Assembly (NCBI GenBank): GCA_030593145.1
Contig: JAUVHU010000002.1
Span: 8,238 to 72,237 of the forward strand
DNA length: 64,000 bases
Source of the DNA: Desulfobacteraceae bacterium
GTDB lineage: Bacteria > Desulfobacterota > Desulfobacteria > Desulfobacterales > ETH-SRB1
Direction of reading: 5' to 3'
The notes beneath the pieces were generated by a model. It saw only the letters and a list, made by a program, of their open reading frames with translations, had not been told where the DNA came from and made no database searches. Shown in pieces: positions 2,684-21,907 of this stretch. Position numbers and translations under genes: made by a program. Every line of letters begins with the position of its first letter. The stretch's first letter is position 1.

Positions 2684-3613
2684 TTAACGGTTACCAATTT
2701 CAAAGACACTAATGCGTGTATTGGCCCGGTCAACGATAAATATCCGGCCTGAACTGTTTATATGGATAAAAGAAGGCCGGTGCAGTCGTCCTTCTCTCCA
2801 GCCGAGTTGTGAAAAAGCATATAGAAACCGGCCTTTATTGTTGAAGACAAGAACCTTATTTTTGTGCTGATCCATTACATAGATCAGCCCTTTTCGATCC
2901 ATAGCAAGGCTTGTTGGGAAATCGAATTCATCCTTACCGGTACCTCTGGTTCCAAACTTTAAAAGAAGATTTCCCTCTCTGTTATAAACGCAAATCGAAC
3001 CATCAATGGCGCTTAGCGCATAGATACGGCCCTGTGCATCAACCTTCACATCCATGAGGCCATGGCTTCCTTTGACAGGAATTTGTCTCTCAAATTGCAA
3101 ATTTGAATCAAAGACAATAATCCGCTTATTAGCTTTATCCACAATATACAAACGATCTTCTGAATCAATAGCCATATTCCCAGGATAAAACGGATTAGCC
3201 CCGGAAACAGTAGAAAGATCGATCGGTTTGACAGATTTTTTCCCGATATCGATAGCCAGGATTTGTCCCTTTACGGGTTCGGCCACAAAAAATCTACCCC
3301 TGCTGTCTTTGACTATGCTTGTCGGTAATGTCAGAGCGCCTCCGCCGGTGAATTCCGAGATATATTTAAACTTATCATTAAAATCAAATGCAAGAATTCT
3401 GCCATTTGTTGTGTCTGTGGAATATAACCTCTTTTTGTTTTCGTCAAAAAAGAGACCGCCAAGCAGGCCAAAATGGCCTATCTCGCTATTCCCGGTGATT
3501 GATGTCAGGTATTTAACCGGTTCTTTTGACGAACAAAATGCGGTTGCAGACATAATTAAAGTCAGGATTAAAACCGGAATAGCAAAATTGATCTTTCTAT
3601 GCACAATTACCAC
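2684..3613 (-). CDS. NHL-repeat six-bladed beta-propeller protein, probable lipoprotein
   Basis: 309-aa ORF with a signal peptide ending ...MSATAF-C-SS. Six blades spaced about 45 aa apart: GRILAFD, GQILAID, KRIIVFD, GSICVYN, NKVLVFN, TRISVFE. Confidence 0.8.
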   Translation of the reverse strand: MVIVHRKINFAIPVLILTLIMSATAFCSSKEPVKYLTSITGNSEIGHFGLLGGLFFDENKKRLYSTDTTNGRILAFDFNDKFKYISEFTGGGALTLPTSIVKDSRGRFFVAEPVKGQILAIDIGKKSVKPIDLSTVSGANPFYPGNMAIDSEDRLYIVDKANKRIIVFDSNLQFERQIPVKGSHGLMDVKVDAQGRIYALSAIDGSICVYNREGNLLLKFGTRGTGKDEFDFPTSLAMDRKGLIYVMDQHKNKVLVFNNKGRFLYAFSQLGWREGRLHRPSFIHINSSGRIFIVDRANTRISVFEIGNR

Positions 3614-3930: not shown

Positions 3931-5187
3931 TCAGTACCCCTTATGACATTGAATACACAACTGCTTTTTTCGATCAAATCTCAAAGCAAAACTATAAGGG
4001 CTTCCCATCAGGTTATGACAGGTACTGCAGCGAATCTCCCCCTTGGACCTCGGATCAATAGTGCCTTTTCCAACAGGATGGGTGAACGTAGCATGTCTTT
4101 TGTGGCAATTAACACACGCGGAAATTTCATCAGTCCTGCACAATAGCTCAAAGTTGGATCCGTGGGGACGATGGCAGTCAGTGCATTTTCCTTTCATAAC
4201 CAAGGGGTGCTTGTATTTGTTATTTTTGTCTTTTAAGCGCTCTTTTGTATCCTGATGACAGGCAGTGCATATTTTTTTCTCTTTTGCCTTCTTCAGGTGA
4301 GGCTCATCCGAAGCATGCGGACTGTGGCAGTCGGTGCAAAAAACGCCTTCTCCCACATGGGTGTTGATCTTTCTGAAGTCCTCTTTAACCCCTGGATGGC
4401 AGGTAATGCAAATCGATATTCCCTTGTTTTTTATGCTCAGCGGATCTGTTGATCCGGCCGGCTTATGGCATTGAGTGCATTTCTTACCGGAAAACGGCTT
4501 GTGTGAGTTTTCCTTGATCAGCTTGCCGCGATTTGATCCGTGGGGATTGTGGCAGGAAATGCAATTGGTATCCTGCACAGGATAATTAAGGTGAGCTTTT
4601 TTCGCTTTTTTGTTATTAATCGAATGACATTTGACGCATATCTGTTTAGGACTCTTTTCGACCAGCTCCTCATAATCGGACGTATGGTGGCTGTGGCAAC
4701 TTAAACAATTACCTTTCTTGGCAGGATCGTGCTTGTTCTTTTTTGAAAACATCTCTTTGCCGGCATGGCAGCTAAAGCAGAGTTGTTCCCCTCTTGCCGT
4801 TAATAGTTTGGGATTTTTTGACGAATGAGGGTTATGACACTTCAGGCACGCTCCTTCTTCAAAAGGAGGATGGCTGTATTTTTTGTCAAAGCTCCCTTTT
4901 TTGCCTTTATGGCAGCTTTTGCACAACACGCTGATTTCATCTTTTATTAGATGTTCGTAATTTGAGGTATGGGGATTGTGGCAGCTTGAACATTGATATT
5001 TTTTAAAAGGCTCGTGTTTCCTCTTTTGAGCCATTTCCTGTTGAATCCCGGGATGACATTCCATGCATTTTTTAAAGCCGACATCCATGCCTTTTGCATC
5101 AGTCACAGGAGCAACCATCATGGATAACAGGAATACCACGAAAAATATCAAATAAAACAAGAATGTGTGATTTTTAACTTTAGGCAT
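3931..5187 (-). CDS. 16-haem c-type cytochrome built from doubled-CXXCH repeat units, secreted
   Basis: 418-aa ORF with signal peptide ...MMVAPVTDA/KG. I counted 16 CXXCH motifs by eye. They recur in a roughly 50-aa unit: CxxCH, about 20 aa containing H-x-P, CxxCH-x-PH-x-S, about 15 aa. Confidence 0.9.
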   Translation of the reverse strand: MPKVKNHTFLFYLIFFVVFLLSMMVAPVTDAKGMDVGFKKCMECHPGIQQEMAQKRKHEPFKKYQCSSCHNPHTSNYEHLIKDEISVLCKSCHKGKKGSFDKKYSHPPFEEGACLKCHNPHSSKNPKLLTARGEQLCFSCHAGKEMFSKKNKHDPAKKGNCLSCHSHHTSDYEELVEKSPKQICVKCHSINNKKAKKAHLNYPVQDTNCISCHNPHGSNRGKLIKENSHKPFSGKKCTQCHKPAGSTDPLSIKNKGISICITCHPGVKEDFRKINTHVGEGVFCTDCHSPHASDEPHLKKAKEKKICTACHQDTKERLKDKNNKYKHPLVMKGKCTDCHRPHGSNFELLCRTDEISACVNCHKRHATFTHPVGKGTIDPRSKGEIRCSTCHNLMGSPYSFALRFDRKKQLCIQCHKGY

Positions 5188-5205: not shown

Positions 5206-7155
5206 CTAATGACATTTTTTACAGTTGCCGTCCTTAAACAGAGGATGCATTATTTTATGTATCAAAGCTTCGTTTTCCGAGCTGTGCGTTTCATGACAGC
5301 CTATACAATTTGTGCCGGCGACAGGAATTGCGCTGTGAGCATCCATCATAGCCGGAGCATTGAGGCTGTGACAACCTTTGCAAAGGCTCGCCCCTTTACC
5401 TGCAAGTAAGTTTTCAATGTTTGCATAGTGCGGCACATGGCACTTCAAACACATCTCTTCCTTTGCCGGCGTATGCTGAAATTTATCCTTTTCAATATGA
5501 AGCGCCAGATCAGAGTGACATGACAGGCAGAGTCTCCCTGCAAGTCTGTTTAATCGTCCTTTTATTTTACTCCCGTGGGGATTATGACAGAATGTGCATT
5601 CTCCCTCTTTAATCGGCATGTGGGTGTATTTGCTTTTTTGGGAAAGAGCCTGAATGTCTCCGTGACACCCATAACAATTATCCGCTCCTATTTTAATCAA
5701 CTGAAAATCGTTGTCGCCGGCATGTTCATCGTGGCATGTAAGACATCGGCCCTTTGCAAAAGATTCATGAACACTTCCCCCCTTCACCTCATCAAGCATC
5801 CCCTTATGGCAATTAAAGCAGAGTTTGTTTTTTTTCTGGATCAAAAGCTTTTCCCTGCTTGCAGAGTGGGGGCTATGGCAGACAACACATTGTCCGATCC
5901 TGATAGGAGTGTGAACATTAACGCGATCAAAGAGTATCTTCTCTTTTTGATGGCAGCTATAACACTGCTCAACTTCGGCGCGCTGGAGTTCAAACTTGTT
6001 ATTTGATGCATGGGGTTCGTGACAAACAACACAATCTCCTTTCTTAACAGGATTGTGAACATTTGACCGCGTAAAATCGTCTCTCTTATGACACTGGTAA
6101 CAAAGCTTTTTGCCGGCCTCTTTCAATCCATAATCGTTGTTTGATGCATGGGGATTATGACAGGATGTACAATTGTTCTCTCCTGCCGGCTTATGAACAT
6201 GTTGTTTCTTAATTAACTTTTCTTTTTCTTTATGGCACGAATAGCAAAGCTTTCCATCAGGCAGAAGCGTTGCATATTTGTTGTCAGTGGCATGTGGACT
6301 GTGGCATGACAGGCAATTTCCATCCTGAACCGGTGAATGGATATGAGCTTTCTTAAAATCCGCCTTGTCTTTTGCATGGCAACCATAGCAAAGCTTTGCG
6401 CCCTTCTCCCTCGGTTCTAAAGCCTGCGCCGATTCAGGTGGGTTATGGCATGCGCTGCACTCCTTTTTGTCAAGGGGTTTATGAATAAATTCGCGCAGCA
6501 ACTTGGGGTTTGAAGAGGAATGTGATGTATGACACGACACACAATTGCTATTGTTCACCTTATAGCCCGAGTGGCTTTTGACAAACCCGGAACCTTTGAA
6601 ATTATGACATTTGGCACATACATCGTTCGTCGTGTTAAATAGCTGTTGTTCATAATCAGAACCATGGGCATCATGACATGTCAGGCAACCCTTGTCGGAT
6701 AATGGCTCATGTTGTGTTTTTCTTGTATAAGAGTCTTTTGAATGGCAAACAAAACAAAGATTATTTCCCTTGCCTTTTAACAGGTTTTTATTTTCGGACG
6801 AATGTGGATTGTGACAACTTATACAGTTTTTTTCTTTTACAGGAGCATGAACATGCTTTTTGTCAAGCACGCTTTTCATCTCTTTATGACAGATGTAACA
6901 CAGCTCCTTTTCGCTCACCTTTAAGTAAACGCCCCCGATCATCCCGTGGGGTCTGTGACACGATTCACACTCGTTGCTTTTTACAGGCTTATGGACAATC
7001 CCTGCCTTCTTAAACTCATCAACCTTTTTTTGATGGCACTCAACGCATTTTTTTCTTACAATCTGCCCTGGCGCTTTTCTCTTGCAGGAAACAATCCCCA
7101 CGATGATAATTGCAATCAATAACAGCAATATAGTAGCTGGTTTTATAAATTTCAT
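5206..7155 (-). CDS. 26-haem c-type cytochrome, probable lipoprotein, same doubled-CXXCH repeat architecture
   Basis: 649-aa ORF. The N-terminus MKFIKPATILLLLIAIIIVGIVS-C-KRK has a lipobox-like IVSC. I counted 26 CXXCH motifs by eye, making 13 repeat units. It lies 18 bp upstream of the 16-haem gene and 3 bp downstream of the SurA-like gene. Confidence 0.9.
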   Translation of the reverse strand: MKFIKPATILLLLIAIIIVGIVSCKRKAPGQIVRKKCVECHQKKVDEFKKAGIVHKPVKSNECESCHRPHGMIGGVYLKVSEKELCYICHKEMKSVLDKKHVHAPVKEKNCISCHNPHSSENKNLLKGKGNNLCFVCHSKDSYTRKTQHEPLSDKGCLTCHDAHGSDYEQQLFNTTNDVCAKCHNFKGSGFVKSHSGYKVNNSNCVSCHTSHSSSNPKLLREFIHKPLDKKECSACHNPPESAQALEPREKGAKLCYGCHAKDKADFKKAHIHSPVQDGNCLSCHSPHATDNKYATLLPDGKLCYSCHKEKEKLIKKQHVHKPAGENNCTSCHNPHASNNDYGLKEAGKKLCYQCHKRDDFTRSNVHNPVKKGDCVVCHEPHASNNKFELQRAEVEQCYSCHQKEKILFDRVNVHTPIRIGQCVVCHSPHSASREKLLIQKKNKLCFNCHKGMLDEVKGGSVHESFAKGRCLTCHDEHAGDNDFQLIKIGADNCYGCHGDIQALSQKSKYTHMPIKEGECTFCHNPHGSKIKGRLNRLAGRLCLSCHSDLALHIEKDKFQHTPAKEEMCLKCHVPHYANIENLLAGKGASLCKGCHSLNAPAMMDAHSAIPVAGTNCIGCHETHSSENEALIHKIMHPLFKDGNCKKCH

Positions 7156-7158
7156 GGC

Positions 7159-8577
7159 TTAATTGTTCCGGTATTTTTCTTCTATCTGTCGCAAAACTTT
7201 TTTGTTAATCTTTATTCTGGAACTTTTACGCAATTTTGCCAAATACTTGGAAAGCACTTTGTTGAAGTTGTTTTGGCCCACGATTTTTTTTAATGTATTG
7301 ACAAGACTGGAGAACTCTATGGGTTCCCCTCCTCTTTTGCCCTTTAATTTAATGATCTTGTATTGTCTGCCATCAGCGATTACCCCGCTGATCTCACCTG
7401 GTTTCAGCCGGTTTAATTCCTTCCTGATTGCAGGAGAAAAGAAATCAGCATTAACCCATACAATCTTTTGCCTTGGCTTCCATTTTTCCGACACCCGAGA
7501 TCCCAAAAACTCAAAACTCGCGCCATACTTTAATTCTTTAAGGGCTTTCTCAGCATCTTTACGAACATTAAAGATCATCTCCCTGAACCAGACTTCATAA
7601 CTTTTCTTGAAATTATTTATATGTTTTTCATAATATTGTGTCAACTCATTTTCTGTTGGAATTGATAGGGGATAGATTAGCTTTGCCTTAAATTCATTGA
7701 TAAGAAGCCGATCTTTACGTTTTTTAACCATATCCATAAATGCAGGCTCGTTGACATAATTTCGCTTTAACGCCTCCTGGTCGATCAATTTGAATAAAAT
7801 CAGTTTGTCTAAAATTTTCTCTTTTAACTCTGGTTGCATTTTTTCCGGATATCCATTGTTTTTCAACAAAAGAGATGTCCCTGGCTGATATTGAGCTGCA
7901 TATTTCATATCATGAAGAAAACTATCGAGGGAAATCATATCACCATTTACGCCCGCCACCACCAACTTTTTTCCTGAGTAATTCTTTCCAGGGTCAAGCA
8001 GGTTAATCAGGTCCTGATCAATCCATATATCCGCCTGTTTTCTTAGCTCGGAAATAAAGTTGTCAGACAGTTCTTTCTCTTTTTTCTTCTTGAGGTTTTT
8101 TCTGATTCGCGCTTCTACCTTTTTAAACATTCCTTCAGAAGCCGGTTCATCTTTCTCATAGTGCTCTTTGAAATAGTCCAAAACATCTTGATCGCTGATG
8201 TTGATTTTATCAAAGACTACTTCTTTTCTTAATCTGATGACAGACCGAGTAATCACGAAAGATTCAATCTTTTTTGTAAAATCAGCAGACCTGTCAAGTT
8301 CCACCCTGTACGCGTCCTGAATCATGAGCCGCTCATCAATCATCTCTTCAACAATATTCAGAATCTCTATGCCGCCCGCGCCTTCTTCAGACCGAATTTG
8401 CAGCTTATTCCTGTGAATAGCCTTAATCCTCTCCTGAAGAGCGCCTTCATCAACAATGTCACCATTGATTTCCGCGAGAACGGTTGTATCCGCAGCCGCA
8501 GAATAGGGTGTATATATATTTGCGGCTGCAAGCCAAAAAAGTGTCATCAAAGTAAATACTGATAATTTTCTCATCAT
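7159..8577 (-). CDS. Periplasmic SurA-like chaperone / PpiC-type (parvulin) peptidyl-prolyl isomerase domain protein
   Basis: 472-aa ORF with signal peptide ...YTPYSAAA/DT. The N-terminus is SurA-like (VLAEINGDIVDEGALQERI). The C-terminal region is parvulin-like (EVWFREMIFNVRKDAEKALKELKYGASFEFLG...GEISGVI...YKIIKL). The usual catalytic His context looks degenerate. Confidence 0.7.
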   Translation of the reverse strand: MMRKLSVFTLMTLFWLAAANIYTPYSAAADTTVLAEINGDIVDEGALQERIKAIHRNKLQIRSEEGAGGIEILNIVEEMIDERLMIQDAYRVELDRSADFTKKIESFVITRSVIRLRKEVVFDKINISDQDVLDYFKEHYEKDEPASEGMFKKVEARIRKNLKKKKEKELSDNFISELRKQADIWIDQDLINLLDPGKNYSGKKLVVAGVNGDMISLDSFLHDMKYAAQYQPGTSLLLKNNGYPEKMQPELKEKILDKLILFKLIDQEALKRNYVNEPAFMDMVKKRKDRLLINEFKAKLIYPLSIPTENELTQYYEKHINNFKKSYEVWFREMIFNVRKDAEKALKELKYGASFEFLGSRVSEKWKPRQKIVWVNADFFSPAIRKELNRLKPGEISGVIADGRQYKIIKLKGKRGGEPIEFSSLVNTLKKIVGQNNFNKVLSKYLAKLRKSSRIKINKKVLRQIEEKYRNN

Positions 8578-8602: not shown

Positions 8603-9223
8603 TTAGGGTATCGTCTCAATCATCTCCAAAACCATTTTCCTGGTCAATTCGCCCACCGACCTGACCTTGCCGAAATCAAGAACCTTTATGTAGTCGTCAC
8701 CGGTTCTTCTGTATTGCGCCATCCACAAAATCTTTCCTGTTCGGGCGTCCACCATCCTCGAACTGATGGAAACCACGGGAATAACGCTCCTTTTCTTTTT
8801 CTCTATCCCTATAAATTCTTCTACCCGACCTATAATAACGGCATCCACTCCCAATCTTTTTCCCGCAAGCTTGATAGTATTGAGATCAATGCCGGTTCTC
8901 ACGATAATTCGCTCGCTAACAAGAAAACTCTTGATGTTACCTGAAAATTCCACCTTAAATTTTCTCGTTTTAATCAGGTTTGCGATAAATGCCCCTGTTA
9001 CAATTTTGCTTGCTCCGGTAATTTTTGTATTGTTGTAAAAAGACAAAACCGCAACCTTTTTGACTGCCGGCTGATCATGGTTTTTTCTGACATAGGTGTA
9101 CGGAGTACCGGATGAAGAACAACCGGAAATGAATCCCAAAATAACAAGCAAAAAAATAAACCTTCTTGTCCGCTCAGCCTTTGAGACCTTTGCAATGTGA
9201 AAACCAATTTTTTGCGAGTCCAT
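8603..9223 (-). CDS. Lipoprotein with CsgG/LpoB/TolB-N-like alpha/beta domain (paralogue 1 of 3)
   Basis: ORF 8603..9271. I prefer the ATG at 9223, which is 4 nt after the upstream stop. Lipobox LGFISG-C-SSS. Motifs KKVAVLSFYNNT, AGKRLGVDAVIIGRVEEF and ARTGKILW...RRTGDD are shared with the next two genes. Confidence 0.6.
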   Translation of the reverse strand: MDSQKIGFHIAKVSKAERTRRFIFLLVILGFISGCSSSGTPYTYVRKNHDQPAVKKVAVLSFYNNTKITGASKIVTGAFIANLIKTRKFKVEFSGNIKSFLVSERIIVRTGIDLNTIKLAGKRLGVDAVIIGRVEEFIGIEKKKRSVIPVVSISSRMVDARTGKILWMAQYRRTGDDYIKVLDFGKVRSVGELTRKMVLEMIETIP

Positions 9224-9227
9224 CAAC

Positions 9228-10754
9228 TCAAAAATCCTCAACCCATTCATGCTTTTTTTTCTCAGGCTCAATCTCAGTTACTTCGAGTTCAAGTGGTTTT
9301 AAGGGTTGTTTTTCTATTTGCAGCCTGTTTCCCGCTATATCTCTTATTTCAAGTGAATAGACAAACATATTCGCTTTTTCCGGGCTCAGGTCTTTTTTTG
9401 TTTTTTTTATTGGGCAGACAATGGTTGCCGGAATATTCCCTTTGCCCTCAAACCTTCCTGCTTCAGTGCCTGTTCTGTCGTAAACAATAACTTCCCAATC
9501 GGCTATTTCGCTTATATCTTTGATTTCCAGCGACAGGGTAAGGCTTTCTTCATTTTCCCCGGCAAGAACAACGAAAGTCTCAGGCGGAGTTTTGTCAACA
9601 ATGATCTTCTCCTTTACTGTAGATGTCCTGTTGCCCGCCTTATCTTCCACAAACAATCTACAGAAATATGTTCCATCTTTAACAGTTTTGTATTTATTAT
9701 TATCACCCTTCCAGATAAAACCTGCGGGCAGCACGCCAAAACCGTCTTCAGACCTCACAATGTTGCCGGCTTTATCTGTAATCTCAACCTGCCAGCTTTC
9801 TAACGTGACTGCTTTCAGAAGTTCAGGAAAGAATTGAATATAGTCATTTATGCCGTCATTATTAGGAGATACAAGCCTGTGCGGAAACGAAAGAGCGATT
9901 TCCGGCCAGCTGTTGTGAACAGTCAGACTGGCTGCGGAGTCCATACTAAAAAGCCTGTCCAATTGGTCCAATACGTAAATCTTCAGCGGATAGACTCCAT
10001 CAATGGCAGGAGCTGAAATAGTTCCGGCATACCATATTCCATCCTCGGTTTTAAGATCAATCTCACTATCAAGAACAAATGCCTTGATATCAAGCAACCT
10101 TCCGGTGATCTCTTTAACCTCTATTAAGAGACGTGTTGTCTCACCGCCTCTTAACACATCAGGAAAAAAACCTGCGTGTGTGATCTCAATAGGAGTTACG
10201 GATGAGCCGGCTGAATTGACAATAGAGGGCAAGTTGCTTAAGAGTTCCTCCACCGTGATGCCTACCAACTTCTTCAAAGAAGTTATCCTGCCCAGGCCGA
10301 GAAATGTGGCAAAGTCGTCCCCTGTGCGTGAAATAGAGTTAGCCCAAACAACAGAACCATCAAAACAATTTATCATCTGGGCATTTATGGCTACCTGTGG
10401 ATTTTCACCATCTTCAAAGAGATCAACTGATCCGAGCAGCAGGACATCCGTCTCTAAAACAGCTCCCATTTCTCTGATAACCGATCTGTCTAAGAATTCC
10501 GTTCCGCGGATTCTTCTTTTGGCAAGGAAATTTTCCAGGATATCCTGAGAAACAACCTTGAATTCATTCTTTATGAGAGAATCCGATATAAGACTCGTTA
10601 CATTAATGGAAATATCTCCGGCGGTAAATATGCCAAAAGGTATCACTGCTGTTCTCTTTATTGTTACCACATCCTCCGCCCACAAAATGCGGCCTGACAA
10701 CCCTGAAAGCAAAAAGGCTAAAATAACTGATAGGATAAATAAATATTTTTTCAC
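9228..10754 (-). CDS. Secreted protein: CsgG/LpoB-like N-domain (paralogue 2) plus FlgD-Ig-like / Ig-like domains
   Basis: 508-aa ORF with a signal peptide. The N-domain carries RTAVIPFGIF...VLETDVLLLGSVDLF...GSVVW...SRTGDD. The middle has SPNNDGINDYIQF...WQVEITDKAGNIV...DGTYFCRLFVEDKAGN, a FlgD-Ig-type signature. Confidence 0.6.
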   Translation of the reverse strand: MKKYLFILSVILAFLLSGLSGRILWAEDVVTIKRTAVIPFGIFTAGDISINVTSLISDSLIKNEFKVVSQDILENFLAKRRIRGTEFLDRSVIREMGAVLETDVLLLGSVDLFEDGENPQVAINAQMINCFDGSVVWANSISRTGDDFATFLGLGRITSLKKLVGITVEELLSNLPSIVNSAGSSVTPIEITHAGFFPDVLRGGETTRLLIEVKEITGRLLDIKAFVLDSEIDLKTEDGIWYAGTISAPAIDGVYPLKIYVLDQLDRLFSMDSAASLTVHNSWPEIALSFPHRLVSPNNDGINDYIQFFPELLKAVTLESWQVEITDKAGNIVRSEDGFGVLPAGFIWKGDNNKYKTVKDGTYFCRLFVEDKAGNRTSTVKEKIIVDKTPPETFVVLAGENEESLTLSLEIKDISEIADWEVIVYDRTGTEAGRFEGKGNIPATIVCPIKKTKKDLSPEKANMFVYSLEIRDIAGNRLQIEKQPLKPLELEVTEIEPEKKKHEWVEDF

Positions 10755-10770
10755 TCAATCAACAATCCCT

Positions 10771-11367
10771 CTATCCCCCAAACAAGGTATCAAACATCTC
10801 TTCAATCAACTCCCTGCAAAGATCGCTGGAGCTCTTTTTGCCGATGCCGAAGAGCCGATCCAGAATGGTTGCTCCCTTTACGTTGTGTGTCGCTTCCCAG
10901 AGGATCTTATAAGATTTTACATCTATCAGCTTTAAAGTAATGGAGACTTCCGGATAAGCGCTGCTCCCTGCACGCGATACACCATATTCTTCAACCGCTC
11001 CTACAATAAAGGCCTGGACGTTCAGCCGTTTTCCGGCCCTTTCAGCAATACTTTTGCTGATGACACCTTCTTTTTTCTTAGCCCCTTCTTCCCTCAATAC
11101 CTTATCCACCTCTCCGAATTCAACAACATCAAATACACCCCGCCTTAACACCTCAGCAGCCACGACATTCATTACCTTGCCTTCCGCTTCATTTTCCTTA
11201 GTCAGGTTTTTTAGAGGCACAATAGCTACTGTCTTAATATATGTAAGATCTGCCGTAGGGTGGATATAACTCATAGGACCAGCGCAACTGTAAAATAGCG
11301 ACAATACCGCAAGTAAAAATACGGTTTGCTTGATACAACTTATATTATTCATCTGTTTTCCATTCAT
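10771..11367 (-). CDS. Probable lipoprotein with CsgG/LpoB-like domain (paralogue 3)
   Basis: 198-aa ORF with signal ...AVLSLFYS-C-AGP. Motifs: IKTVAIVPLKNLT, AGKRLNVQAFIVGAVEEY, SYKILW. It aligns clearly with 8603..9223. Confidence 0.6.
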   Translation of the reverse strand: MNGKQMNNISCIKQTVFLLAVLSLFYSCAGPMSYIHPTADLTYIKTVAIVPLKNLTKENEAEGKVMNVVAAEVLRRGVFDVVEFGEVDKVLREEGAKKKEGVISKSIAERAGKRLNVQAFIVGAVEEYGVSRAGSSAYPEVSITLKLIDVKSYKILWEATHNVKGATILDRLFGIGKKSSSDLCRELIEEMFDTLFGG

Positions 11368-11444: not shown

Positions 11445-13583
11445 TTAAAACCTTGCTGAAAGATTCGTGGTAAAAGTCTGTGTTTTCGTTATCGGATCTG
11501 CCTCCTGGCAGGTCCAATTATAACCGAATCTTAAGGTAAAAATCCGGCTCAAATTCCAGTAAAGGTCAGAAGAATAAGTTGAGCTGATAGTACCATTTCT
11601 GTTCAAGATATACCCCATGTCAAGCCGCATCTTTTCGGTCATCAACCAGTTCATGTTATACTGCTGCTGAGTGGTTTCCTCTCCTGTCTGCTCATCCCTG
11701 TCAATGCCGTAAGACGCTCTGAAGTAAAAATAATGAGACGGCCGCCAGTTAAATATAGTCTTGGCATTGGAAGTTTGACCAGTTGTACCACCGCTTGAAT
11801 TTTGTGTTTCTGTCCAATTTCTACCATATTCAATTTCAGCTGTCAACATTCTGGTAAGCTCCAGACGTAGATTTGAGTTAATAGACTTAGTGGTTGTCTC
11901 GGATTGACTGACAGGATTTTCCAAACGGGTGATATTTACATCCACATCCAGATCCGCCCCTTCACGAAGCTTTGCCGCCACCTGAAACAGAGCGGATGAG
12001 TTCTTTGAGTGGGTTTCGCCGTCTTCTTTTGATACCGTATAATTCAACAAAAGGTCGGTGTTAAGGGCTTTGAGGGGAGATGAAAGAAAGTGCAGCAGAT
12101 AAGTATCGGTTGTCTTATCCTTTGTCTCTGTCTCAGAATCATATTTATACTCCTGGCGTCTGCGATACTCCGGCCGGATTTTGAGATACTTATGAGCTTT
12201 AAACTCTTTTCCAATGCGACCGGATATATCATGGCTTGACCGCTTGGTTTTGGTTGAGTCGGCACCCGTCTCCTCACTCTCCTGCTCGTCCTGCGTAAAA
12301 TCATACGTAAAAGAGAGCCAATCCGTGGGCTTATATCTAAGATTGGCCTGGGTTGTTTGGGTTGTTTGTTCGGTATCAGTGGTGGTAAAGGCGGCCTGGG
12401 TCGTAGATCCGTAGGCCTCGATCTCTGTGACAAAGAGATCATTATCATCATTATCATCATTGACTACCTTAAAATATGTGGCCGGTGGTGCGGTAAACGA
12501 GATCTCAAACCGCTTCTGATTTGTGTCATAGTCGAAACTGGCTCCAGAGGTTATCAGCGTCCATGTAGCGTTATCAGTACTTGAATACACATCCCATACA
12601 AAGTTGTTCTTGTCGAAGTTGATGTTGGGTGATTCCGTATAAAGATATATTTTGTCAATTTCAGTGGAAAAAGTGAGGTCCAGCCCAATGTTCTGGTTGG
12701 TGTTTCCACTTCCTCCAATGTTGATCTCCGTGGGCGTGGTAACGCGCGTCGCTTTGTTGCCATCCTTGAGAGCATCATAAGTATCATCAAGAGTTCCTGA
12801 CAGTGGGGCAGAATCATGAGCATAAAGTCCGGTATACACTGTCTTTTTTTCGGCAACCTCGACATCCTGCCCCCCTGTTGTGGTTTCCGTCTTTCTGTTT
12901 GTGATCGAATAGGTTCCCGAAGTTACAATCTTGTTTTTCCAGAACGACTTTCTGAAATCGACTCTTCCTTCATTGGTATTGGTCTCCGTTGTGGATTCTG
13001 TAACATAATTATCCGAAACATTGTTTTTATAATCGTAGTTAAAATTCAAAAAACGGAAGGCATAATCAGCACTTCCGGAAAAATTAGTGGTTTTGGTATT
13101 TGTCTCGCGTACTGCCAGGTGGTCATAGTTCATGTCTTCGTTGTAACGGAGTCGCACTTTGGGATATTTTTCGGACTTTGTGGATAAATTGACGTTCCAC
13201 GATTCGGTCGTCAAGCGATCTTCGTCTGAAACCATGGTCAGGATATCGAGACCTTTTTCAGTAATCCGATAGCCTGTATCAGCAGAAAAATATTCATTTC
13301 TTAGATTAAGCCTTATATCCGGAGTCAACCGCGTTGTTTTAGTATCGTTTGTCTCGTTTACATTAATTCCAAGATTAGCGGCAAAGTTGACTTTAGGAGT
13401 AAATTCCTTGGTCGCCCGAATATTATAGTTCTGCGTAAAACCCCAGGAATTTTTTTCTTCTTCACCGGTCTTTGTTTTGGTCGAACAATAAGTAAGGTTG
13501 GCCGAACCACTGATATCATCTCCGGCGTAGACTCCCCGGAAGCAGATCAGAGTCAGCAAAAAAATAGCAATCCAATATTTCAT
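11445..13583 (-). CDS. Large outer-membrane beta-barrel protein with an inserted discoidin (F5/8 type C)-like module
   Basis: 712-aa ORF with signal peptide ...FRGVYA/GDD. Long runs alternate polar and aromatic residues, are rich in T/N/Y, and show strand-like periodicity. The C-terminus ...TTNLSARF ends in Phe, which is OMP beta-signal-like. Residues about 255-392 (NNFVWDVYSSTDNATWTLI...YFKVVN...FVTEIEAYG) resemble a galactose-binding/discoidin fold. Confidence 0.65.
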   Translation of the reverse strand: MKYWIAIFLLTLICFRGVYAGDDISGSANLTYCSTKTKTGEEEKNSWGFTQNYNIRATKEFTPKVNFAANLGINVNETNDTKTTRLTPDIRLNLRNEYFSADTGYRITEKGLDILTMVSDEDRLTTESWNVNLSTKSEKYPKVRLRYNEDMNYDHLAVRETNTKTTNFSGSADYAFRFLNFNYDYKNNVSDNYVTESTTETNTNEGRVDFRKSFWKNKIVTSGTYSITNRKTETTTGGQDVEVAEKKTVYTGLYAHDSAPLSGTLDDTYDALKDGNKATRVTTPTEINIGGSGNTNQNIGLDLTFSTEIDKIYLYTESPNINFDKNNFVWDVYSSTDNATWTLITSGASFDYDTNQKRFEISFTAPPATYFKVVNDDNDDNDLFVTEIEAYGSTTQAAFTTTDTEQTTQTTQANLRYKPTDWLSFTYDFTQDEQESEETGADSTKTKRSSHDISGRIGKEFKAHKYLKIRPEYRRRQEYKYDSETETKDKTTDTYLLHFLSSPLKALNTDLLLNYTVSKEDGETHSKNSSALFQVAAKLREGADLDVDVNITRLENPVSQSETTTKSINSNLRLELTRMLTAEIEYGRNWTETQNSSGGTTGQTSNAKTIFNWRPSHYFYFRASYGIDRDEQTGEETTQQQYNMNWLMTEKMRLDMGYILNRNGTISSTYSSDLYWNLSRIFTLRFGYNWTCQEADPITKTQTFTTNLSARF

Positions 13584-13768: not shown

Positions 13769-15211
13769 TCACTCCTCAATCATCGCAATCCCATGCGGCC
13801 CTCTCCCTACCTGAATGGCCGTTTTCAGTCGTCTTGTTGTAAGATCAATAACAGATAGATCCTCTGACAGGGTATTAACCACGTAAAGTTTTCTTCTCAA
13901 CGACTCGACAACCATCTGTGAAGGAAGGTCCCCAACCGATATGTTTCCGGTAGTCATATCCATAGAGGTATATATGAAGGAAACTTCATTGCCGGTGTTA
14001 GACACGTAAATCCGGCCTGACAAGCCAGACACAAGCCACATGGGCTTTTGACTCAGAAGTATCGTTTTTGTAACCGAATAAGACGGGATGTCTATCACAG
14101 AAATACTGTTTGAACCTACATTAATCACATATAGCTTATCCTGGTGAATGGCCATGCCGGTGGGATTAAAACCGACTGTTACAGTATCTTCCACAGCACT
14201 GGTATTCACGTCGATGATCGATACGGAATTTGACGCTTTGTTTGCCACATAGACCTTGCGTCTGTATTGATCGAACACAATGCCGGCAGGATTCTTCCCC
14301 ACAGATATAAAATCGGTTGCCGTATTTGAAAGAGTATCTATCACGGAGATATTGTCTGAATCCGGGTTGGTTGCGTAAAGTGTCAAGCCATCCCCGGACA
14401 AGGCGAGTTCAGCAGGACTATATCCAAAATTGGCGATTGTGTTGATTACCCTGTTTAAATCGGTATCGATAACCGAAATATTGCCGGTGTCGAAATTGGC
14501 TACATATATCTTATCCCCATCCGGGCTTACCACAATTCCCATAGGCGATTGATCTACCGCAATAGTTGCTACCACCCTATCCTGCTGCCTGTCTATAACG
14601 GTAACGCAATTAGAGCCCATATTCGTAACATAGAGTAAAATATTTTTAATCTCTATACTCTGTTTCCGCATGATCATCTTTGGCCTGAAAAGATATTTAT
14701 CAAAAACAGACTCTTCCGGATTCCAGTCCGCAAAAAAAGCAAAACTCTCCCCGGAAAATACAGAAAACTCCATATCAAAAAAATGGTTTCCCCCGGGCTG
14801 GGGAAGAACCAGGCTGAAGATTTTTCCATACTTTTCCAGTTTTGCCTCAGAAATTGTCCACCTTATCCGTTCATACTTTCCGGCAGGCAGATGAAGCTCA
14901 CACAATTTGATCTGACTCTGAGCGAACCCGAAAGAATGAATGCACTTATCCACCGCCACATCGATCCACTTTCCCTCCTTGTTCATAAAGCTCATGCCGG
15001 AGATAGAAAAGGAGATATCAAATGTAGGTTTTTGTGAACAGGAAAGATAGAAGAAGACCTGGCCCTTATTGGTTAATTGGAGCTCCTTGGAGGTAGGTTC
15101 AAAAATACATGCTGCAATAGAAACTAAGGCCAGCACAACTATTATCAAACGAAAAACCAGGAATTTTGCCGCAATTCTTTTCCTCATGATGTCCTCATTT
15201 CTTTTTTTCAA
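13769..15211 (-). CDS. Lipoprotein with N-terminal beta-sandwich-like domain and YVTN-family beta-propeller repeats
   Basis: 480-aa ORF with lipobox LVSIAA-C-I. Repeats: YVANFDTGNISVID, LYATNPDSDNISVID, VYVANKASNSVSIID, LYVINVGSNSISVID, LYVVNTLSEDLSVID. The start at 15211 overlaps the upstream gene by 17 nt; an alternative ATG is at 15187. Confidence 0.8.
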   Translation of the reverse strand: MKKRNEDIMRKRIAAKFLVFRLIIVVLALVSIAACIFEPTSKELQLTNKGQVFFYLSCSQKPTFDISFSISGMSFMNKEGKWIDVAVDKCIHSFGFAQSQIKLCELHLPAGKYERIRWTISEAKLEKYGKIFSLVLPQPGGNHFFDMEFSVFSGESFAFFADWNPEESVFDKYLFRPKMIMRKQSIEIKNILLYVTNMGSNCVTVIDRQQDRVVATIAVDQSPMGIVVSPDGDKIYVANFDTGNISVIDTDLNRVINTIANFGYSPAELALSGDGLTLYATNPDSDNISVIDTLSNTATDFISVGKNPAGIVFDQYRRKVYVANKASNSVSIIDVNTSAVEDTVTVGFNPTGMAIHQDKLYVINVGSNSISVIDIPSYSVTKTILLSQKPMWLVSGLSGRIYVSNTGNEVSFIYTSMDMTTGNISVGDLPSQMVVESLRRKLYVVNTLSEDLSVIDLTTRRLKTAIQVGRGPHGIAMIEE

Positions 15212-16598
15212 ACATGACTTTTCCGCGATAGATTCCGCATAACCAGCCTGTGCGCCCGGATCCTGTTTTTACAAAATACCATGAAGTTAATTCATCGTGT
15301 TTGTCCTGGCTCAGGATTTCAAACTCTTCGCCTTTTTTCATCAACCGAATGATCCTGCTGCTTGTAGCGCTTTTTTCCCGCAGGTTCATGTTTGCAGTCA
15401 AGATATAATGCTGTGCGGTCACTCGCTCTGATAGTTCTTTTCCGGCGGGAGCTTCCGGCTTTATCTCTTTGACTAATTCTTTTGTGATGATATCTTTTGG
15501 TTTAACTTTTTCAGCCACTGCAACAGACCGAATCACTTCTATTTTAAAGACCTGTATCCTGTTGTTAAAAGTGTCTGCGATCAGCACATTTCCAGAGTCG
15601 TCCGCGGTGATATCGCTTGGATGCTGAAACCAACCTCTGCCCCAGCCTTTGCCGCCAAAATCAAACAAAAAACGTCCGTCTTCTGAATAGGCGTTTGCGG
15701 TATGCCGCATGTAGTCGATTACATAAATCACTTTGTTGTGCTTATCTATAGTCATTCCTCTTGGCCGGCTCAACTTGCTGGATCCCCCGCCTTTCTGGCC
15801 GAACTTAAACAGGAAATTTTCCTTGTCATCATATACGTAAATACGGCCCATGTCTTCACTCAAAAGGTATATCCTGCCGGAGCTGTCTATCTCCACATCG
15901 CATATCGTGGCTTTTTGTTCTTCACCTTTTCCCAGTCTGTCAACAGGACTCATGAGATGGCAAAACGTTCCATCCTCATTCAAAATCACCACGCCATGAA
16001 AGCTGACGCCGGCCACATAGAATTTGCCCGCCTTGCTGATGGCAATATTTGTTGGGTGAAAACTATCCGCGTTTTCAAATCCCTCAAAAAAAAAATTCTT
16101 GCTCCACCTTAATGAAGGATCCAATACCGTTATTCTTGCTCCCTTCTCTTTTAAGCCGGATGACTGAGCAACAAAAAGATGCCCCTCAGGATCAACCGCC
16201 ACGCCTGCAGGAGTTTTGATGCCGTTTGATTTTCCAACACTAAGAAGCGGGTAAAAATCATAAGTATATACCAATATTCTGCTGTGTCCGGAATCCGTAA
16301 TATAGATCTCCTTTTTTACAGAATCGAAGAATAATTTGGATGGATAAGACAGTTTCAGACCATTATAGTCCTCCCTGATAATATAAAGGCAGGTAATCTT
16401 TTTCAGCTTGATTTGATCAGCATAGATAGCCGAATCGGTTTGCTTCGGTAAATCAGTTGACTCGGATTCATGCTGGATGTCGATCTGTTGCCCGGCGACA
16501 GAGCATTGAACAAAGGGCCATAGGCCAGACAAAGAGATGCATATTGCGATAATAATACAAAAACCGACTATCTCTTTTGTGCTGCTGTTACAGGACAT
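15195..16598 (-). CDS. NHL-repeat beta-propeller protein with C-terminal bacterial SH3 domain
   Basis: 467-aa ORF with a hydrophobic N-terminal signal or anchor. NHL blades: HSRILVYTY, GRIYVYDDK, NNRIQVFKI and others. The C-terminus NLREKSATSSRIIRLMKKGEEFEILSQ...WYFVKTGSGRTGWLCGIY is SH3b-like. This is the first gene of the cluster. Confidence 0.8.
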   Translation of the reverse strand: MSCNSSTKEIVGFCIIIAICISLSGLWPFVQCSVAGQQIDIQHESESTDLPKQTDSAIYADQIKLKKITCLYIIREDYNGLKLSYPSKLFFDSVKKEIYITDSGHSRILVYTYDFYPLLSVGKSNGIKTPAGVAVDPEGHLFVAQSSGLKEKGARITVLDPSLRWSKNFFFEGFENADSFHPTNIAISKAGKFYVAGVSFHGVVILNEDGTFCHLMSPVDRLGKGEEQKATICDVEIDSSGRIYLLSEDMGRIYVYDDKENFLFKFGQKGGGSSKLSRPRGMTIDKHNKVIYVIDYMRHTANAYSEDGRFLFDFGGKGWGRGWFQHPSDITADDSGNVLIADTFNNRIQVFKIEVIRSVAVAEKVKPKDIITKELVKEIKPEAPAGKELSERVTAQHYILTANMNLREKSATSSRIIRLMKKGEEFEILSQDKHDELTSWYFVKTGSGRTGWLCGIYRGKVMFEKKK

Positions 16599-21885: not shown

Positions 21886-21907
21886 CTGCTACAAGGAAAA
21901 TCACCAG

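What the first reader, a model, noticed from the sequence alone, without database searches (positions are those of the whole stretch)
12408..12821. Discoidin/galactose-binding-like module embedded inside an outer-membrane beta-barrel
Residues about 255-392 of the 712-aa barrel protein break the strand-like T/N/Y-rich pattern. They read like an F5/8 type C fold: NNFVWDVYSSTDNATWTLITSG...RFEISFTAPPATYFKVVN...LFVTEIEAYG. The insert ends in an acidic DDNDDND linker. Barrel-type sequence surrounds it, and the C-terminus ends ...SARF. A lectin-like domain displayed from a surface loop of a putative conduit barrel could dock the cell onto a mineral, a polysaccharide matrix or a partner cell. I do not know of this fusion in characterised porin-cytochrome barrels.
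Basis: partly seen in the sequence, partly recalled or inferred. Interest (0 to 1): 0.7.

Follow-up and report, generated by a model that had tools for sequence, protein, structure and literature searches.

The report
Lectin-fold domain on nanowire-operon barrel
A large outer-membrane barrel, encoded in a conserved multiheme-cytochrome (OmcS-companion type) operon of an uncultured sulfate reducer, carries a complete sugar-binding-type (discoidin/CBM32) domain on a predicted outward-facing loop; the feature is real and found across a large protein family, but what the domain binds is unknown.

Summary
ORF 11445-13583 (-) encodes a 712-aa protein. It has a signal peptide, 11 predicted transmembrane strands, a roughly 150-aa insert, then 17 more strands ending in ...SARF.

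The insert has a discoidin/CBM32 fold. The window's own sequence scores just below Pfam's cut-offs, but 30 of 42 homologous inserts hit PF00754 and PF22633. A domain-only AlphaFold model (pLDDT 94.5) matches almost only CBM32 and other F5/8 type C domains.

The insert follows an odd-numbered strand, on the polar side opposite both termini, so it is predicted to be extracellular. The 'DDNDDND linker' is really the loop before the domain's last strand.

The architecture is not rare. At least 815 clusters (50% identity) share it, in an invariant operon: beta-propeller lipoprotein, barrel, PelC-like lipoprotein, Ig-like protein, prolyl isomerase, 26-heme lipoprotein cytochrome, 16-heme cytochrome, NHL protein. 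This window also has an OmcS-like hexaheme cytochrome. That matches the Geobacter 'osc' nanowire-assembly cluster, where OscE/F/G are proposed for secretion.

I read the protein as an OscE-like barrel whose stalk-mounted domain binds the exported cytochrome filament or surface glycans. A cell-docking lectin role remains possible. Rare insert-less orthologues exist in intact operons. This is a new member of a known kind, of moderate interest.

The parts
11445..13583 (-). Whole gene: 712-aa outer-membrane barrel with an inserted discoidin/CBM32 domain (stop codon at 11445-11447)
   Evidence: ORF list. A 100%-identical NCBI protein, P0001, starts 8 codons later. AF2 model has mean pLDDT 89.6.
13524..13583 (-). 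Signal peptide, residues 1-20 (MKYWIAIFLLTLICFRGVYA|GDD)
   Evidence: Read from the sequence. Helix 2-14 with low pLDDT in the model.
12876..13517 (-). Barrel strands 1-11 (residues 23-236)
   Evidence: DSSP on the model. The alignment-averaged hydrophobic face lies at the terminus-proximal end of each strand, followed by a Tyr/Trp girdle and then a polar extension.
12390..12863 (-). Insert with its two connectors (residues 241-398). Connectors 241-247 and 392-398 are predicted to pair as a two-stranded stalk.
   Evidence: Exploratory mean-field DCA: 240-398 z=8.5, 242-396 z=4.2, 247-392 z=5.3. No signal for 241-247 folding back on 230-236.
12408..12842 (-). Discoidin / F5/8 type C / CBM32-like beta-sandwich core (residues 248-392)
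   Evidence: Pfam results, PDB profile hits, domain-only model and Foldseek matches that are almost all CBM32 or other F5/8 type C domains.
12438..12461 (-). Acidic loop NDDNDDND (residues 375-382) between the last two strands of the domain, at the end distal from the barrel. It is not a linker.
   Evidence: DSSP. Family consensus NTxNDxxxL with low conservation.
11448..12383 (-). Barrel strands 12-28 (residues 401-712), ending in the aromatic C-terminal residue F712 (...SARF)
   Evidence: DSSP and hydrophobic-face analysis.
13769..15211 (-). YVTN beta-propeller lipoprotein (lipobox IAAC), at the OscD-like position
   Evidence: TIGR02276 E=6e-64. Lipobox read from the sequence. Synteny in all loci.
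15195..16598 (-). NHL-repeat propeller with a C-terminal SH3 domain, first gene of the block
   Evidence: Pfam NHL 1.6e-20 and SH3_3 5e-9. Synteny.
10771..11367 (-). PelC/LpoB-like outer-membrane lipoprotein (198 aa)
   Evidence: PF13036 at 2.3e-9. PelC structures 5t10/5t11 at E about 1e-4 and 9h80_C PelC at 0.07.
9228..10754 (-). 508-aa secreted protein with Ig-like (CHU_C/FlgD_ig/Big) domains
   Evidence: Pfam. C5a peptidase Fn3/Ig region at E about 1e-3. Synteny.
8603..9271 (-). GNA1162-like lipoprotein (lipobox ISGC)
   Evidence: PF05643 at 7.7e-4, below its cut-off. Lipobox.
7159..8577 (-). SurA-like PpiC-type prolyl isomerase, at the OscH-like position
   Evidence: PF13145 at 3.7e-12.
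5206..7155 (-). 26-heme cytochrome c, predicted lipoprotein (lipobox IVSC), at the OscI/GSU2495-like position
   Evidence: 26 CXXCH motifs. TIGR03508 DmsE/MtrA family at 267 bits, summed over 5 stretches, against a cut-off of 192.
3931..5187 (-). 16-heme soluble periplasmic cytochrome c, at the OscJ/GSU2494-like position
   Evidence: 16 CXXCH motifs. TIGR03508 at 185 bits, just under its cut-off.
2684..3613 (-). NHL-repeat six-bladed propeller
   Evidence: Pfam NHL 4e-15 and DUF5128.
1559..2635 (-). OmcS-like hexaheme cytochrome (5 CXXCH motifs plus one longer-spaced C(x5)CH motif), a candidate nanowire subunit
   Evidence: A profile of 9 homologues hits OmcS 6ef8_A at E=2.9e-25. Sequence.

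Best explanation
The gene encodes the outer-membrane beta-barrel of an 'osc-type' (OmcS-companion) cytochrome-nanowire / extracellular-electron-transfer operon in an uncultured Desulfobacterales-like sulfate reducer.

What is shown or predicted:
- The barrel has about 28 strands, with an estimated C-alpha diameter near 50 A.
- A complete discoidin/CBM32-type beta-sandwich is spliced into the hairpin between strands 11 and 12.
- The domain rides on a two-stranded stalk on the polar, non-terminus face of the barrel. That face is predicted to be extracellular.

What is inferred:
- The barrel works with the PelC-like and other lipoproteins as the exit or mounting site for the OmcS-like cytochrome filament.
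- The MtrA/DmsE-like 16-heme and 26-heme cytochromes carry electrons to the same site.
- The stalk-mounted domain is a built-in binding module at the outer rim. It most likely holds a conserved ligand of the machine itself: the emerging cytochrome, its glycans, or the cell's own surface polysaccharide.
- It is less likely a free adhesin for variable external targets.
For: - Fold of the insert.
- Barrel: 11 + 17 strands at pLDDT about 95. Every strand alternates, with its hydrophobic belt at the terminus-proximal end and a polar extension at the insert side. The best TM-scores among solved structures are to very large barrels: MtrB 6r2q_B 0.37/0.40, SlpA 0.36, LptD 0.30.
- The insert is a discrete module. 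Orthologues P0133/P0269 and P0190 lack exactly this segment. Twelve clusters carry a circularly permuted version.
- Stalk: DCA ladder 240-398, 242-396, 244-394, 247-392.
- Operon: gene order is identical in 25 of 25 genome loci, down to 23% barrel identity.
- OmcS-like subunit. PelC-like lipoprotein. MtrA/DmsE-like 16- and 26-heme cytochromes. Lipoboxes on the 26-heme cytochrome and the propeller.
- Literature: Skennerton 2017 (PMC5539420) described the 16-heme, 26-heme, PPIase and propeller core in SEEP-SRB1 and found no porin. PMC13194489 gives oscC=GSU2501, oscI=GSU2495 and oscJ=GSU2494, with OscH for folding, OscE/F/G for secretion and OscD for morphology. GSU2495 has 26 hemes. A bioRxiv preprint (10.1101/2025.10.22.684050) notes large barrels and propeller lipoproteins in most OmcS and OmcE regions, as a putative 'secretion or anchor'.
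- The domain is at least as conserved as the barrel: 1.68 against 1.54 and 1.43 bits per column over 258 sequences. It is present in nearly all of the 150 best representatives.
Against: - No coordinates or PAE were available. The full model's pTM is only 0.63, so the domain's position relative to the lumen (on top, leaning in, or leaning out) is unresolved.
- Homology of this barrel to Geobacter OscE (GSU2499) could not be tested. The primary osc paper could not be read, so the OscE equation rests on gene order alone.
- The window's own domain is below Pfam's gathering thresholds.
- No conserved distal-loop binding site is evident, and nothing identifies the ligand.
- Insert-less barrels sit in otherwise intact operons, so the domain is not indispensable to the machine.
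- The DCA rests on only about 191 effective sequences and is exploratory.
Confidence: 0.55

Rival explanations
1. First reader's model. The barrel is a classical MtrB-like porin-cytochrome sheath, with the 16-heme cytochrome threaded through it and the 26-heme lipoprotein outside. The discoidin domain is a lectin that docks the cell onto a mineral, an exopolysaccharide matrix or a partner (for example ANME) cell.
For: - MtrB is the best TM match among solved barrels.
- The 16- and 26-heme proteins match the DmsE/MtrA family model, and the 26-heme protein has a lipobox like MtrC.
- CBM32 domains are sugar binders.
- The insert-less orthologue in an intact operon shows the domain is an accessory.
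- The lineage-specific acidic distal loop could bind cations.
Against: - No sequence relation to MtrB/PioB or any known porin-cytochrome porin.
- The operon also carries an OmcS-like subunit, a PPIase, propellers and a PelC-like lipoprotein, as in the osc assembly cluster.
- The domain is as conserved as the barrel across at least 815 clusters from very different habitats. That is unlike adhesins facing variable targets.
- A 150-aa domain on a stalk of about 7 residues stays close to the cell surface, which is an inference.
Confidence: 0.25
2. The domain is a built-in lid or plug. A 28-strand barrel whose other loops are only 2-13 residues long needs something to occlude it. The beta-sandwich would fold over or into the outer vestibule, and be displaced when the cytochrome filament is exported. 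This would be functionally analogous to the plug domain inserted in chaperone-usher barrels.
For: - All other loops are short, and the domain is the only large insertion.
- The estimated lumen of about 40 A could admit a domain of about 35 A. This is geometry, so an inference.
- Near-universal retention and high conservation.
- Usher barrels (FimD) appear among the fold matches.
Against: - The connectors co-vary as an extended stalk rather than folding back.
- Domain-barrel couplings cluster on the neighbouring strands S8-S9, not across the lumen.
- Insert-less orthologues persist in intact operons.
- The usher plug is inserted in a periplasmic turn, not an outer loop (general knowledge).
- The lumen may be filled instead by a cytochrome or a lipoprotein.
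Confidence: 0.15
3. The domain faces the periplasm, either through inverted topology or a miscounted strand. There it would bind peptidoglycan, glycans or a periplasmic partner.
For: - No experimental topology exists.
- The strand count comes from a predicted model only.
Against: - Eleven clear strands precede the insert. The alternation of the belt position (start of odd strands, end of even strands) is unbroken across all 28 strands.
- The signal peptide is followed at once by strand 1, and the C-terminal Phe signal places both termini in the periplasm.
- The longest other loops (L3, L4) lie on the same side as the insert.
Confidence: 0.05

Closest known systems
Geobacter sulfurreducens osc (OmcS-companion) cluster, GSU2494-GSU2504 (Shen et al. 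2025, Cell Chem Biol 32:239); OscE/F/G are proposed for nanowire secretion
   Same: - Same gene neighbourhood logic: beta-propeller (OscD-like), then barrel plus lipoproteins at the OscE/F/G positions, then prolyl isomerase (OscH), 26-heme (OscI = GSU2495) and 16-heme (OscJ = GSU2494).
- An OmcS-like hexaheme gene is in the cluster.
   Different: - Sequence homology of the barrel to GSU2499 was not tested.
- The window has four genes, not three, between the propeller and the isomerase.
- The host is a sulfate reducer, where electrons would flow inward.
- Whether Geobacter OscE carries the discoidin insert is unknown to me.
SEEP-SRB1a/1c 16-heme/26-heme operon (Skennerton et al. 2017, PMC5539420)
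   Same: Same four-gene core: six-bladed propeller, 16-heme cytochrome, 26-heme cytochrome and PPIase, in Desulfobacterales-type bacteria.
   Different: - That study found no porin and called the flanking genes 'unknown function'. Here the upstream 712-aa gene is a large barrel that is syntenic in every locus.
- That study placed the 26-heme protein in the periplasm. Here it has a lipobox.
MtrCAB porin-cytochrome complex (MtrB, PDB 6r2q)
   Same: - A very large outer-membrane barrel (26 strands against about 28) encoded next to MtrA/DmsE-like multiheme cytochromes and a lipoprotein cytochrome.
- The best TM-score among solved structures, 0.37/0.40.
   Different: - No sequence similarity: no PF11854 or TIGR03509 hit, and no PDB profile hit to the barrel.
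- MtrB has no inserted globular domain.
- This operon has many extra components.
CBM32 / F5/8 type C (discoidin) carbohydrate-binding modules, e.g. YeCBM32 (2jd9), C. perfringens NagH/NagJ/GH89 CBM32s, AlyQ CBM32 (7d29)
   Same: - Same beta-sandwich fold (TMt 0.55-0.69).
- Shared sequence signatures: LIDG[DN]K.T, S.DN..W, ARYFKV, VTEIEAY.
   Different: - Those are appended to soluble enzymes or toxins. This one is spliced into a loop of a membrane barrel.
- The usual Trp after 'DGD..T' is replaced by INIG.
- No ligand is known.
PelB-PelC polysaccharide export (PelC ring under an outer-membrane barrel; 5t10, 9h80)
   Same: The adjacent 198-aa lipoprotein resembles PelC (E about 1e-4) and sits next to an outer-membrane barrel gene.
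   Different: - The barrel is unrelated to PelB and far larger.
- The presumed substrate is a cytochrome, not a polysaccharide.
- Ring formation was not tested.
Chaperone-usher barrels (PapC/FimD) with an inserted beta-sandwich plug
   Same: A beta-sandwich domain inserted between two strands of a large fibre-exporting barrel. This is a conceptual analogy. FimD is among the fold hits at TMq 0.28.
   Different: - The usher plug is in a periplasmic turn and sits in the lumen (general knowledge).
- Here the insert is on the outer side, on a stalk.
- The folds and sequences are unrelated.

Membership tests
F5/8 type C / discoidin / CBM32 (PF00754, PF22633) | Profile-HMM match at or above the curated threshold | tested here: inconclusive
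   The window's own segment scores 22.1 bits against 28.2 (PF00754) and 25.3 against 27.8 (PF22633), with E=1.7e-4 and 2.5e-5. The full-length protein gives no hit. Of 42 orthologous inserts, 30 match both models at E<=0.01, with a best E of 3.9e-12. Many homologues carry precomputed PF00754.
F5/8 type C / discoidin / CBM32 (PF00754, PF22633) | Eight-strand jelly-roll beta-sandwich with adjacent N and C termini | tested here: met
   Domain model has pLDDT 94.5 and pTM 0.89. Almost all of the top 50 Foldseek PDB hits are CBM32 or other F5/8 type C domains, with TMt up to 0.69. A natural circularly permuted clade confirms that the termini are adjacent.
F5/8 type C / discoidin / CBM32 (PF00754, PF22633) | Binding of a carbohydrate or other ligand at the distal loops | not testable with these tools
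   The distal loops (308-310, 354-357, 376-383) are poorly conserved. Only the structural S.DN..W motif is conserved.
Bacterial outer-membrane beta-barrel protein | Signal peptide, an even number of amphipathic antiparallel strands, aromatic girdles and a C-terminal aromatic residue | tested here: met
   Signal peptide at 1-20. There are 28 DSSP strands. Every strand shows an alternating hydrophobic face, with Tyr/Trp at the belt edge. The C-terminus is SARF, and F712 is at least 90% conserved. DCA couples strand 1 with the last loop, 36-698.
MtrB/PioB decaheme-associated barrel family (PF11854, TIGR03509) | Sequence-profile membership | tested here: not met
   No Pfam or NCBIfam barrel hit at E<=1 for the full protein. 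The family profile finds no barrel in the PDB, MtrB included, at E<=10. The resemblance is at fold level only, TM 0.37-0.40.
MtrB/PioB decaheme-associated barrel family (PF11854, TIGR03509) | Encoded next to an MtrA/DmsE-type periplasmic multiheme cytochrome and a lipoprotein cytochrome | tested here: met
   The 16-heme protein scores 185 bits and the 26-heme protein 267 bits on TIGR03508 (cut-off 192). The 26-heme score is summed over 5 stretches. The 26-heme protein has the lipobox IVSC.
osc (OmcS-companion) nanowire assembly cluster, OscE-like barrel | Cluster content and order: OmcS-like hexaheme, propeller (OscD), E/F/G genes, PPIase (OscH), 26-heme (OscI), 16-heme (OscJ) | tested here: met
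   OmcS-like protein at E=2.9e-25 against 6ef8. The order propeller, barrel, lipoproteins, PPIase, 26-heme, 16-heme holds in all loci. The gene-name mapping comes from PMC13194489 and GSU numbering, so it is an inference by arithmetic.
osc (OmcS-companion) nanowire assembly cluster, OscE-like barrel | Sequence homology to G. sulfurreducens OscE (GSU2499) | not testable with these tools
   The GSU2499 sequence could not be retrieved. The family does reach Desulfuromonadaceae (P0177, with PF00754) and Trichloromonas.
osc (OmcS-companion) nanowire assembly cluster, OscE-like barrel | Required for secretion of OmcS-type filaments | not testable with these tools
   This needs genetics. It is reported for Geobacter OscE/F/G only through secondary citation.
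PelC-like lipoprotein (neighbouring gene 10771-11367) | Sequence similarity to PelC, plus a lipobox | tested here: inconclusive
   5t10/5t11 at E about 1e-4, 9h80_C PelC at 0.07. PF13036 LpoB at 2.3e-9, above its cut-off. The lipobox LFYSC is relaxed. Dodecamer formation was not tested.

The most novel reading that the evidence does not exclude
The stalk-mounted discoidin/CBM32 module is the outer-membrane 'socket' of cytochrome nanowires. It would grip the base of the OmcS-like filament or its glycans as the filament leaves the 28-strand barrel. That would make this barrel the missing outer-membrane exit and anchor for the electron-uptake wires of sulfate-reducing syntrophs such as ANME partners. 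It would also give a defined, mutable handle on how nanowires are attached to cells.
Probability: 0.25. Interest if true: 0.8.

Novelty: new member of a known kind. Interest (0 to 1): 0.5.

Why it matters
How cytochrome nanowires leave the cell and stay attached is an acknowledged open question. Where electrons cross the outer membrane in syntrophic sulfate reducers is also open.

Skennerton et al. 2017 found no porin for the 16/26-heme operon of SEEP-SRB1. This analysis shows that a very large barrel is an invariant part of that operon. It also shows that nearly every member carries a lectin-fold domain on the predicted outer face.

That gives a concrete, testable element:
- delete or swap the domain;
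- test binding to the OmcS-like subunit, to the 26-heme lipoprotein, and to glycans.

These tests address filament anchoring, secretion gating or cell-cell contact. The natural insert-less and circularly permuted variants are ready-made controls.

Tried and rejected
1. Pfam and NCBIfam on the full-length protein gave no barrel family and no F5/8 hit. Only the isolated segment scores.
2. The family profile against PDB sequences matched only the insert. No solved barrel is related by sequence.
3. Foldseek on the full model ranks TonB-dependent receptors first by E-value, but at TM 0.2. I treat these as generic barrel matches. MtrB, SlpA and LptD have higher TM-scores.
4. Literature:
   - No held paper contains both 'discoidin' and 'extracellular electron transfer'.
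   - Murali 2023 (OetABI conduit) does not discuss this operon.
   - The primary osc paper (PMC11845295, PMID 39818215) is not held.
   - Searches for Osc gene names were swamped by rice genes and medical-education acronyms.
5. Attempts to reach Geobacter OscE failed. Word-indexed searches with P0177 and with a 14-sequence alignment returned 20 and 5 hits, none from Geobacter. Cluster look-ups gave few names.
6. Single-sequence phmmer of the 358-aa cytochrome against the PDB found nothing. Only a 9-sequence profile revealed OmcS.
7. The first DCA run exceeded memory. The reduced run gives a clear stalk signal but only suggestive domain-barrel couplings.
8. An HMM-based screen for permuted domains failed. 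A motif-order screen worked.
9. P0189 looked insert-less by HMM but does carry a divergent domain.
10. An exact look-up of P0001's contig found nothing.
11. A chance or compositional artefact is rejected, given the fold and family evidence.
Full report
**What is at the coordinates.** The finding lies in ORF 11445..13583 on the minus strand, which is 712 aa. Residues 255-392 map exactly to 12408..12821. The protein begins with a signal peptide (MKYWIAIFLLTLICFRGVYA|GDD) and ends in ...NLSARF.

**The insert is a discoidin/CBM32 domain.**
- Scanned alone, the segment hits PF22633 (E=2.5e-5, 25.3 bits, cut-off 27.8) and PF00754 (E=1.7e-4, 22.1 bits, cut-off 28.2). The full-length protein gives neither.
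- On its own sequence, then, the call is sub-threshold. At family level it is firm. Of 42 orthologous inserts, 30 hit both models, with a best E of 3.9e-12.
- A profile of the inserts finds solved F5/8 and CBM32 domains: GH92 7nsn at 1.7e-5, YeCBM32 2jd9 at 1.1e-4, plus galactose oxidase and NagH CBM32.
- An AlphaFold2 model of residues 238-400 has pLDDT 94.5 and pTM 0.89. Its 50 best PDB matches are almost all CBM32 or other F5/8 type C domains, with target-normalised TM of 0.55-0.69.
- The family consensus shows the usual signatures: GLY..D, LIDG[DN]K.T, QNIGLDL, IYLYT, W.VY.S.DN..W, RFEISF, ARYFKVVN, VTEIEAY.
The consensus there is NTxNDxxxL, it is poorly conserved, and it is acidic only in this lineage. 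The module also starts earlier than stated, at about residue 248.

**The flanks are a very large barrel, and the insert is on the non-terminus side.**
- The full-length model used 79 sequences and has mean pLDDT 89.6 and pTM 0.63. It shows 11 long strands (23-236), the insert, then 17 strands (401-711).
- All other connections are 2-13 residues long.
- As an independent check, I used alignment-averaged hydrophobicity. Every strand has an alternating face. The hydrophobic belt sits at the start of odd strands and the end of even strands. A Tyr/Trp follows, then polar or charged residues.
- The belt is therefore next to the N and C termini, and a polar 'chimney' extends on the side that carries the insert.
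- Strand 1 follows the signal peptide directly, and there is a C-terminal Phe. By the standard topology of outer-membrane proteins, both termini are periplasmic. An insert after strand 11 is then extracellular. This is an inference from an established rule; it has not been shown experimentally.
- For 28 strands, textbook barrel geometry gives a C-alpha diameter of about 50 A. That is also an inference.
- Foldseek ranks TonB-dependent receptors first by E-value, but the best TM-scores are to MtrB (6r2q_B, 0.37/0.40), SlpA (0.36) and LptD (0.30).
- No barrel family matches by sequence in Pfam, NCBIfam or the PDB.

**How the domain is attached.** Coordinates are not returned by the tools, so I ran an exploratory mean-field DCA on 485 columns of a 258-sequence alignment (about 191 effective sequences).
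- The strongest coupling of all is 240-398 (z=8.5). It has an antiparallel ladder: 242-396 (4.2), 244-394 (2.6) and 247-392 (5.3).
- Registers in which 241-247 folds back on 230-236 show nothing above z=2.6.
- The two connectors therefore pair as a two-stranded stalk that prolongs strands 11 and 12.
- Domain-barrel couplings are weak. They cluster on residues 187/189 (outer end of strand 9) and 160/162 (loop 4 / strand 8), paired with domain residues 343, 348, 312, 274 and 309. This suggests that the domain rests on the neighbouring rim rather than spanning the lumen.
- This part is suggestive only. The low pTM is consistent with an uncertain domain orientation.

**It is a discrete, old and almost universal module.**
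- An exhaustive profile search finds 815 clusters at 50% identity with E<=1e-30, and 1160 with E<=1e-10.
- Nearly all full-length representatives are 680-780 aa and carry the domain at about residues 256-403.
- Two lineages lack exactly this segment and have a short hairpin instead: P0133/P0269 (574/580 aa) and P0190 (571 aa).
- P0269 sits in an otherwise complete operon.
- Twelve clusters carry a circular permutation. The first roughly 45 residues (GLY..D...LIDGDK..INIGG) follow VTEIEAY instead of preceding QNIG.
- Across 258 sequences the domain is at least as conserved as the barrel: 1.68 against 1.54 and 1.43 bits per column. The conserved positions are mostly core residues. The distal loops vary.

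**Genomic context.** The gene lies in a minus-strand block, in this order:

| Coordinates | Product |
|---|---|
| 15195-16598 | NHL + SH3 protein |
| 13769-15211 | YVTN propeller lipoprotein |
| 11445-13583 | the barrel |
| 10771-11367 | LpoB/PelC-like lipoprotein |
| 9228-10754 | 508-aa Ig-like protein |
| 8603-9271 | GNA1162-like lipoprotein |
| 7159-8577 | SurA-like PpiC isomerase |
| 5206-7155 | 26-heme cytochrome with lipobox |
| 3931-5187 | 16-heme soluble cytochrome |
| 2684-3613 | NHL propeller |
| 1559-2635 | 358-aa cytochrome |

- The same order recurs in all 25 genome loci and in three metagenome loci, down to 23% barrel identity.
- The 198-aa lipoprotein resembles PelC, the ring lipoprotein under the PelB export barrel: 5t10/5t11 at E about 1e-4 and 9h80_C at 0.07.
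- The 16- and 26-heme proteins match the DmsE/MtrA family model, at 185 and 267 bits against a cut-off of 192. The 26-heme score is summed over five stretches.
- A profile of the 358-aa cytochrome and eight homologues hits the nanowire subunit OmcS (6ef8) at E=2.9e-25. The single sequence alone found nothing.

**Comparison with the literature.**
- Skennerton et al. 2017 described the core of propeller, 16-heme, 26-heme and PPIase in SEEP-SRB1a/c. They noted homologues in Geobacter and Desulfuromonas, and reported no recognisable porin.
- GSU2495 is the 26-heme protein of G. sulfurreducens.
- A 2026 paper gives oscC=GSU2501, oscI=GSU2495 and oscJ=GSU2494. Citing Shen et al. 2025, it summarises OscH as the folding factor, OscE/F/G as secretion components and OscD as a morphology factor for OmcS nanowires.
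- By gene numbering, OscE/F/G are GSU2499-2497. These lie between the propeller and the isomerase, which is exactly where the barrel and lipoproteins lie here. This mapping is an inference.
- A 2025 preprint states that large outer-membrane barrels and propeller lipoproteins accompany most OmcS and OmcE loci, as a putative 'secretion or anchor'.
- I could not read Shen et al. or retrieve GSU2499. Direct homology to OscE is therefore untested, as is whether the authors noted the discoidin insert.
- No held paper contains both 'discoidin' and 'extracellular electron transfer'. NCBI already names some members 'discoidin domain-containing protein'.
- The family reaches Desulfuromonadaceae, Trichloromonas and a Zixiibacteriota MAG.

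**Most likely mechanism.**
- Shown: the domain fold, the barrel, the insertion point and the conserved operon.
- Inferred: extracellular exposure, the equivalence to OscE, and that the barrel is the exit or mounting site for the OmcS-like filament and/or the passage for the MtrA-like cytochromes.
- For the domain itself, I favour a binding module held on a stalk at the outer rim that recognises a conserved ligand of the machine. The ligand would be the emerging cytochrome, its glycans, or the cell's own surface polysaccharide.
- Three observations support this. The domain is retained and conserved like the barrel across very different lineages. Its distal loops are not conserved as a single sugar site would be. 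It stays close to the cell surface.
- The rare insert-less orthologues argue that it is an accessory and not an indispensable gate.

**Verdict.**
- The protein is best filed as a new member of a known kind of system: an osc-type cytochrome operon and its large outer-membrane barrel.
- Its family-wide lectin-fold insertion appears not to have been discussed in the literature I could search.
- Interest is moderate (0.5). It would be higher if the domain proves to be the nanowire anchor.

Noticed in passing
window 1559-2635 (-): The 358-aa cytochrome has 5 CXXCH motifs plus one longer-spaced C(x5)CH motif. It is an OmcS-like hexaheme protein: a 9-sequence profile hits OmcS 6ef8 at E=2.9e-25, although single-sequence phmmer finds nothing. 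It is a candidate nanowire subunit at the end of the operon.
   Followed up: yes
window 10771-11367 (-): The 198-aa lipoprotein next to the barrel resembles PelC, the ring-forming lipoprotein of the Pel exopolysaccharide exporter (5t10/5t11 at E about 1e-4). It also matches Pfam LpoB. This hints at a periplasmic funnel under the barrel.
   Followed up: partly
window 5206-7155 (-), 13769-15211 (-), 8603-9271 (-): The 26-heme cytochrome (IVSC), the YVTN propeller (IAAC) and the GNA1162-like protein (ISGC) all have lipoboxes. Skennerton 2017 treated the 26-heme protein as a soluble periplasmic protein.
   Followed up: partly
homologues P0018, P0031, P0033, P0034, P0037, P0041, P0045, P0046, P0048, P0049, P0050, P0054: A clade 62-67% identical to the window protein carries a circularly permuted discoidin insert. 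The N-terminal roughly 45 residues (GLY..D...LIDGDK..INIGG) are moved behind the last strand, VTEIEAY.
   Followed up: partly
P0133/P0269 (L029 6380-8122) and P0190: These barrel orthologues lack exactly the discoidin insert and have a short hairpin instead. P0269 lies in an otherwise complete operon, so the insert was lost at least twice.
   Followed up: yes
window 9228-10754 (-) and 8603-9271 (-): The listed ORFs overlap by 44 nt, and the YVTN and NHL+SH3 ORFs overlap by 17 nt. The start codons may be miscalled. The 508-aa protein has an N-terminal region that looks LpoB/CsgG-like by eye (TAVIPF...), ahead of its Ig-like domains.
   Followed up: no
window 13560-13583: The 100%-identical NCBI protein P0001 is 704 aa, so it starts 8 codons downstream of the ATG used here. 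The true start codon is uncertain but does not affect the finding.
   Followed up: no
L004, L005, L007, L008, L012, L015, L020, L023, L026-L028: Many related operons have an extra 4-5-heme cytochrome gene within the lipoprotein block between the Ig-like gene and the PPIase gene. This window lacks it. Several loci also carry OmcX-like 11- and 12-heme genes upstream.
   Followed up: no
P0251, P0177, P0279: The barrel family is not confined to Desulfobacterales. Members come from a Zixiibacteriota MAG, a Desulfuromonadaceae MAG and a Trichloromonas MAG. One genome bin is labelled Spirochaetota (L021).
   Followed up: partly
window 17468-25052 (+/-): Upstream of the operon are housekeeping genes: an M16 PreP-like peptidase, a DUF2520 Rossmann protein, and histidyl- and aspartyl-tRNA synthetases. 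The operon is therefore chromosomal, with no sign of a mobile element in the part I examined.
   Followed up: no
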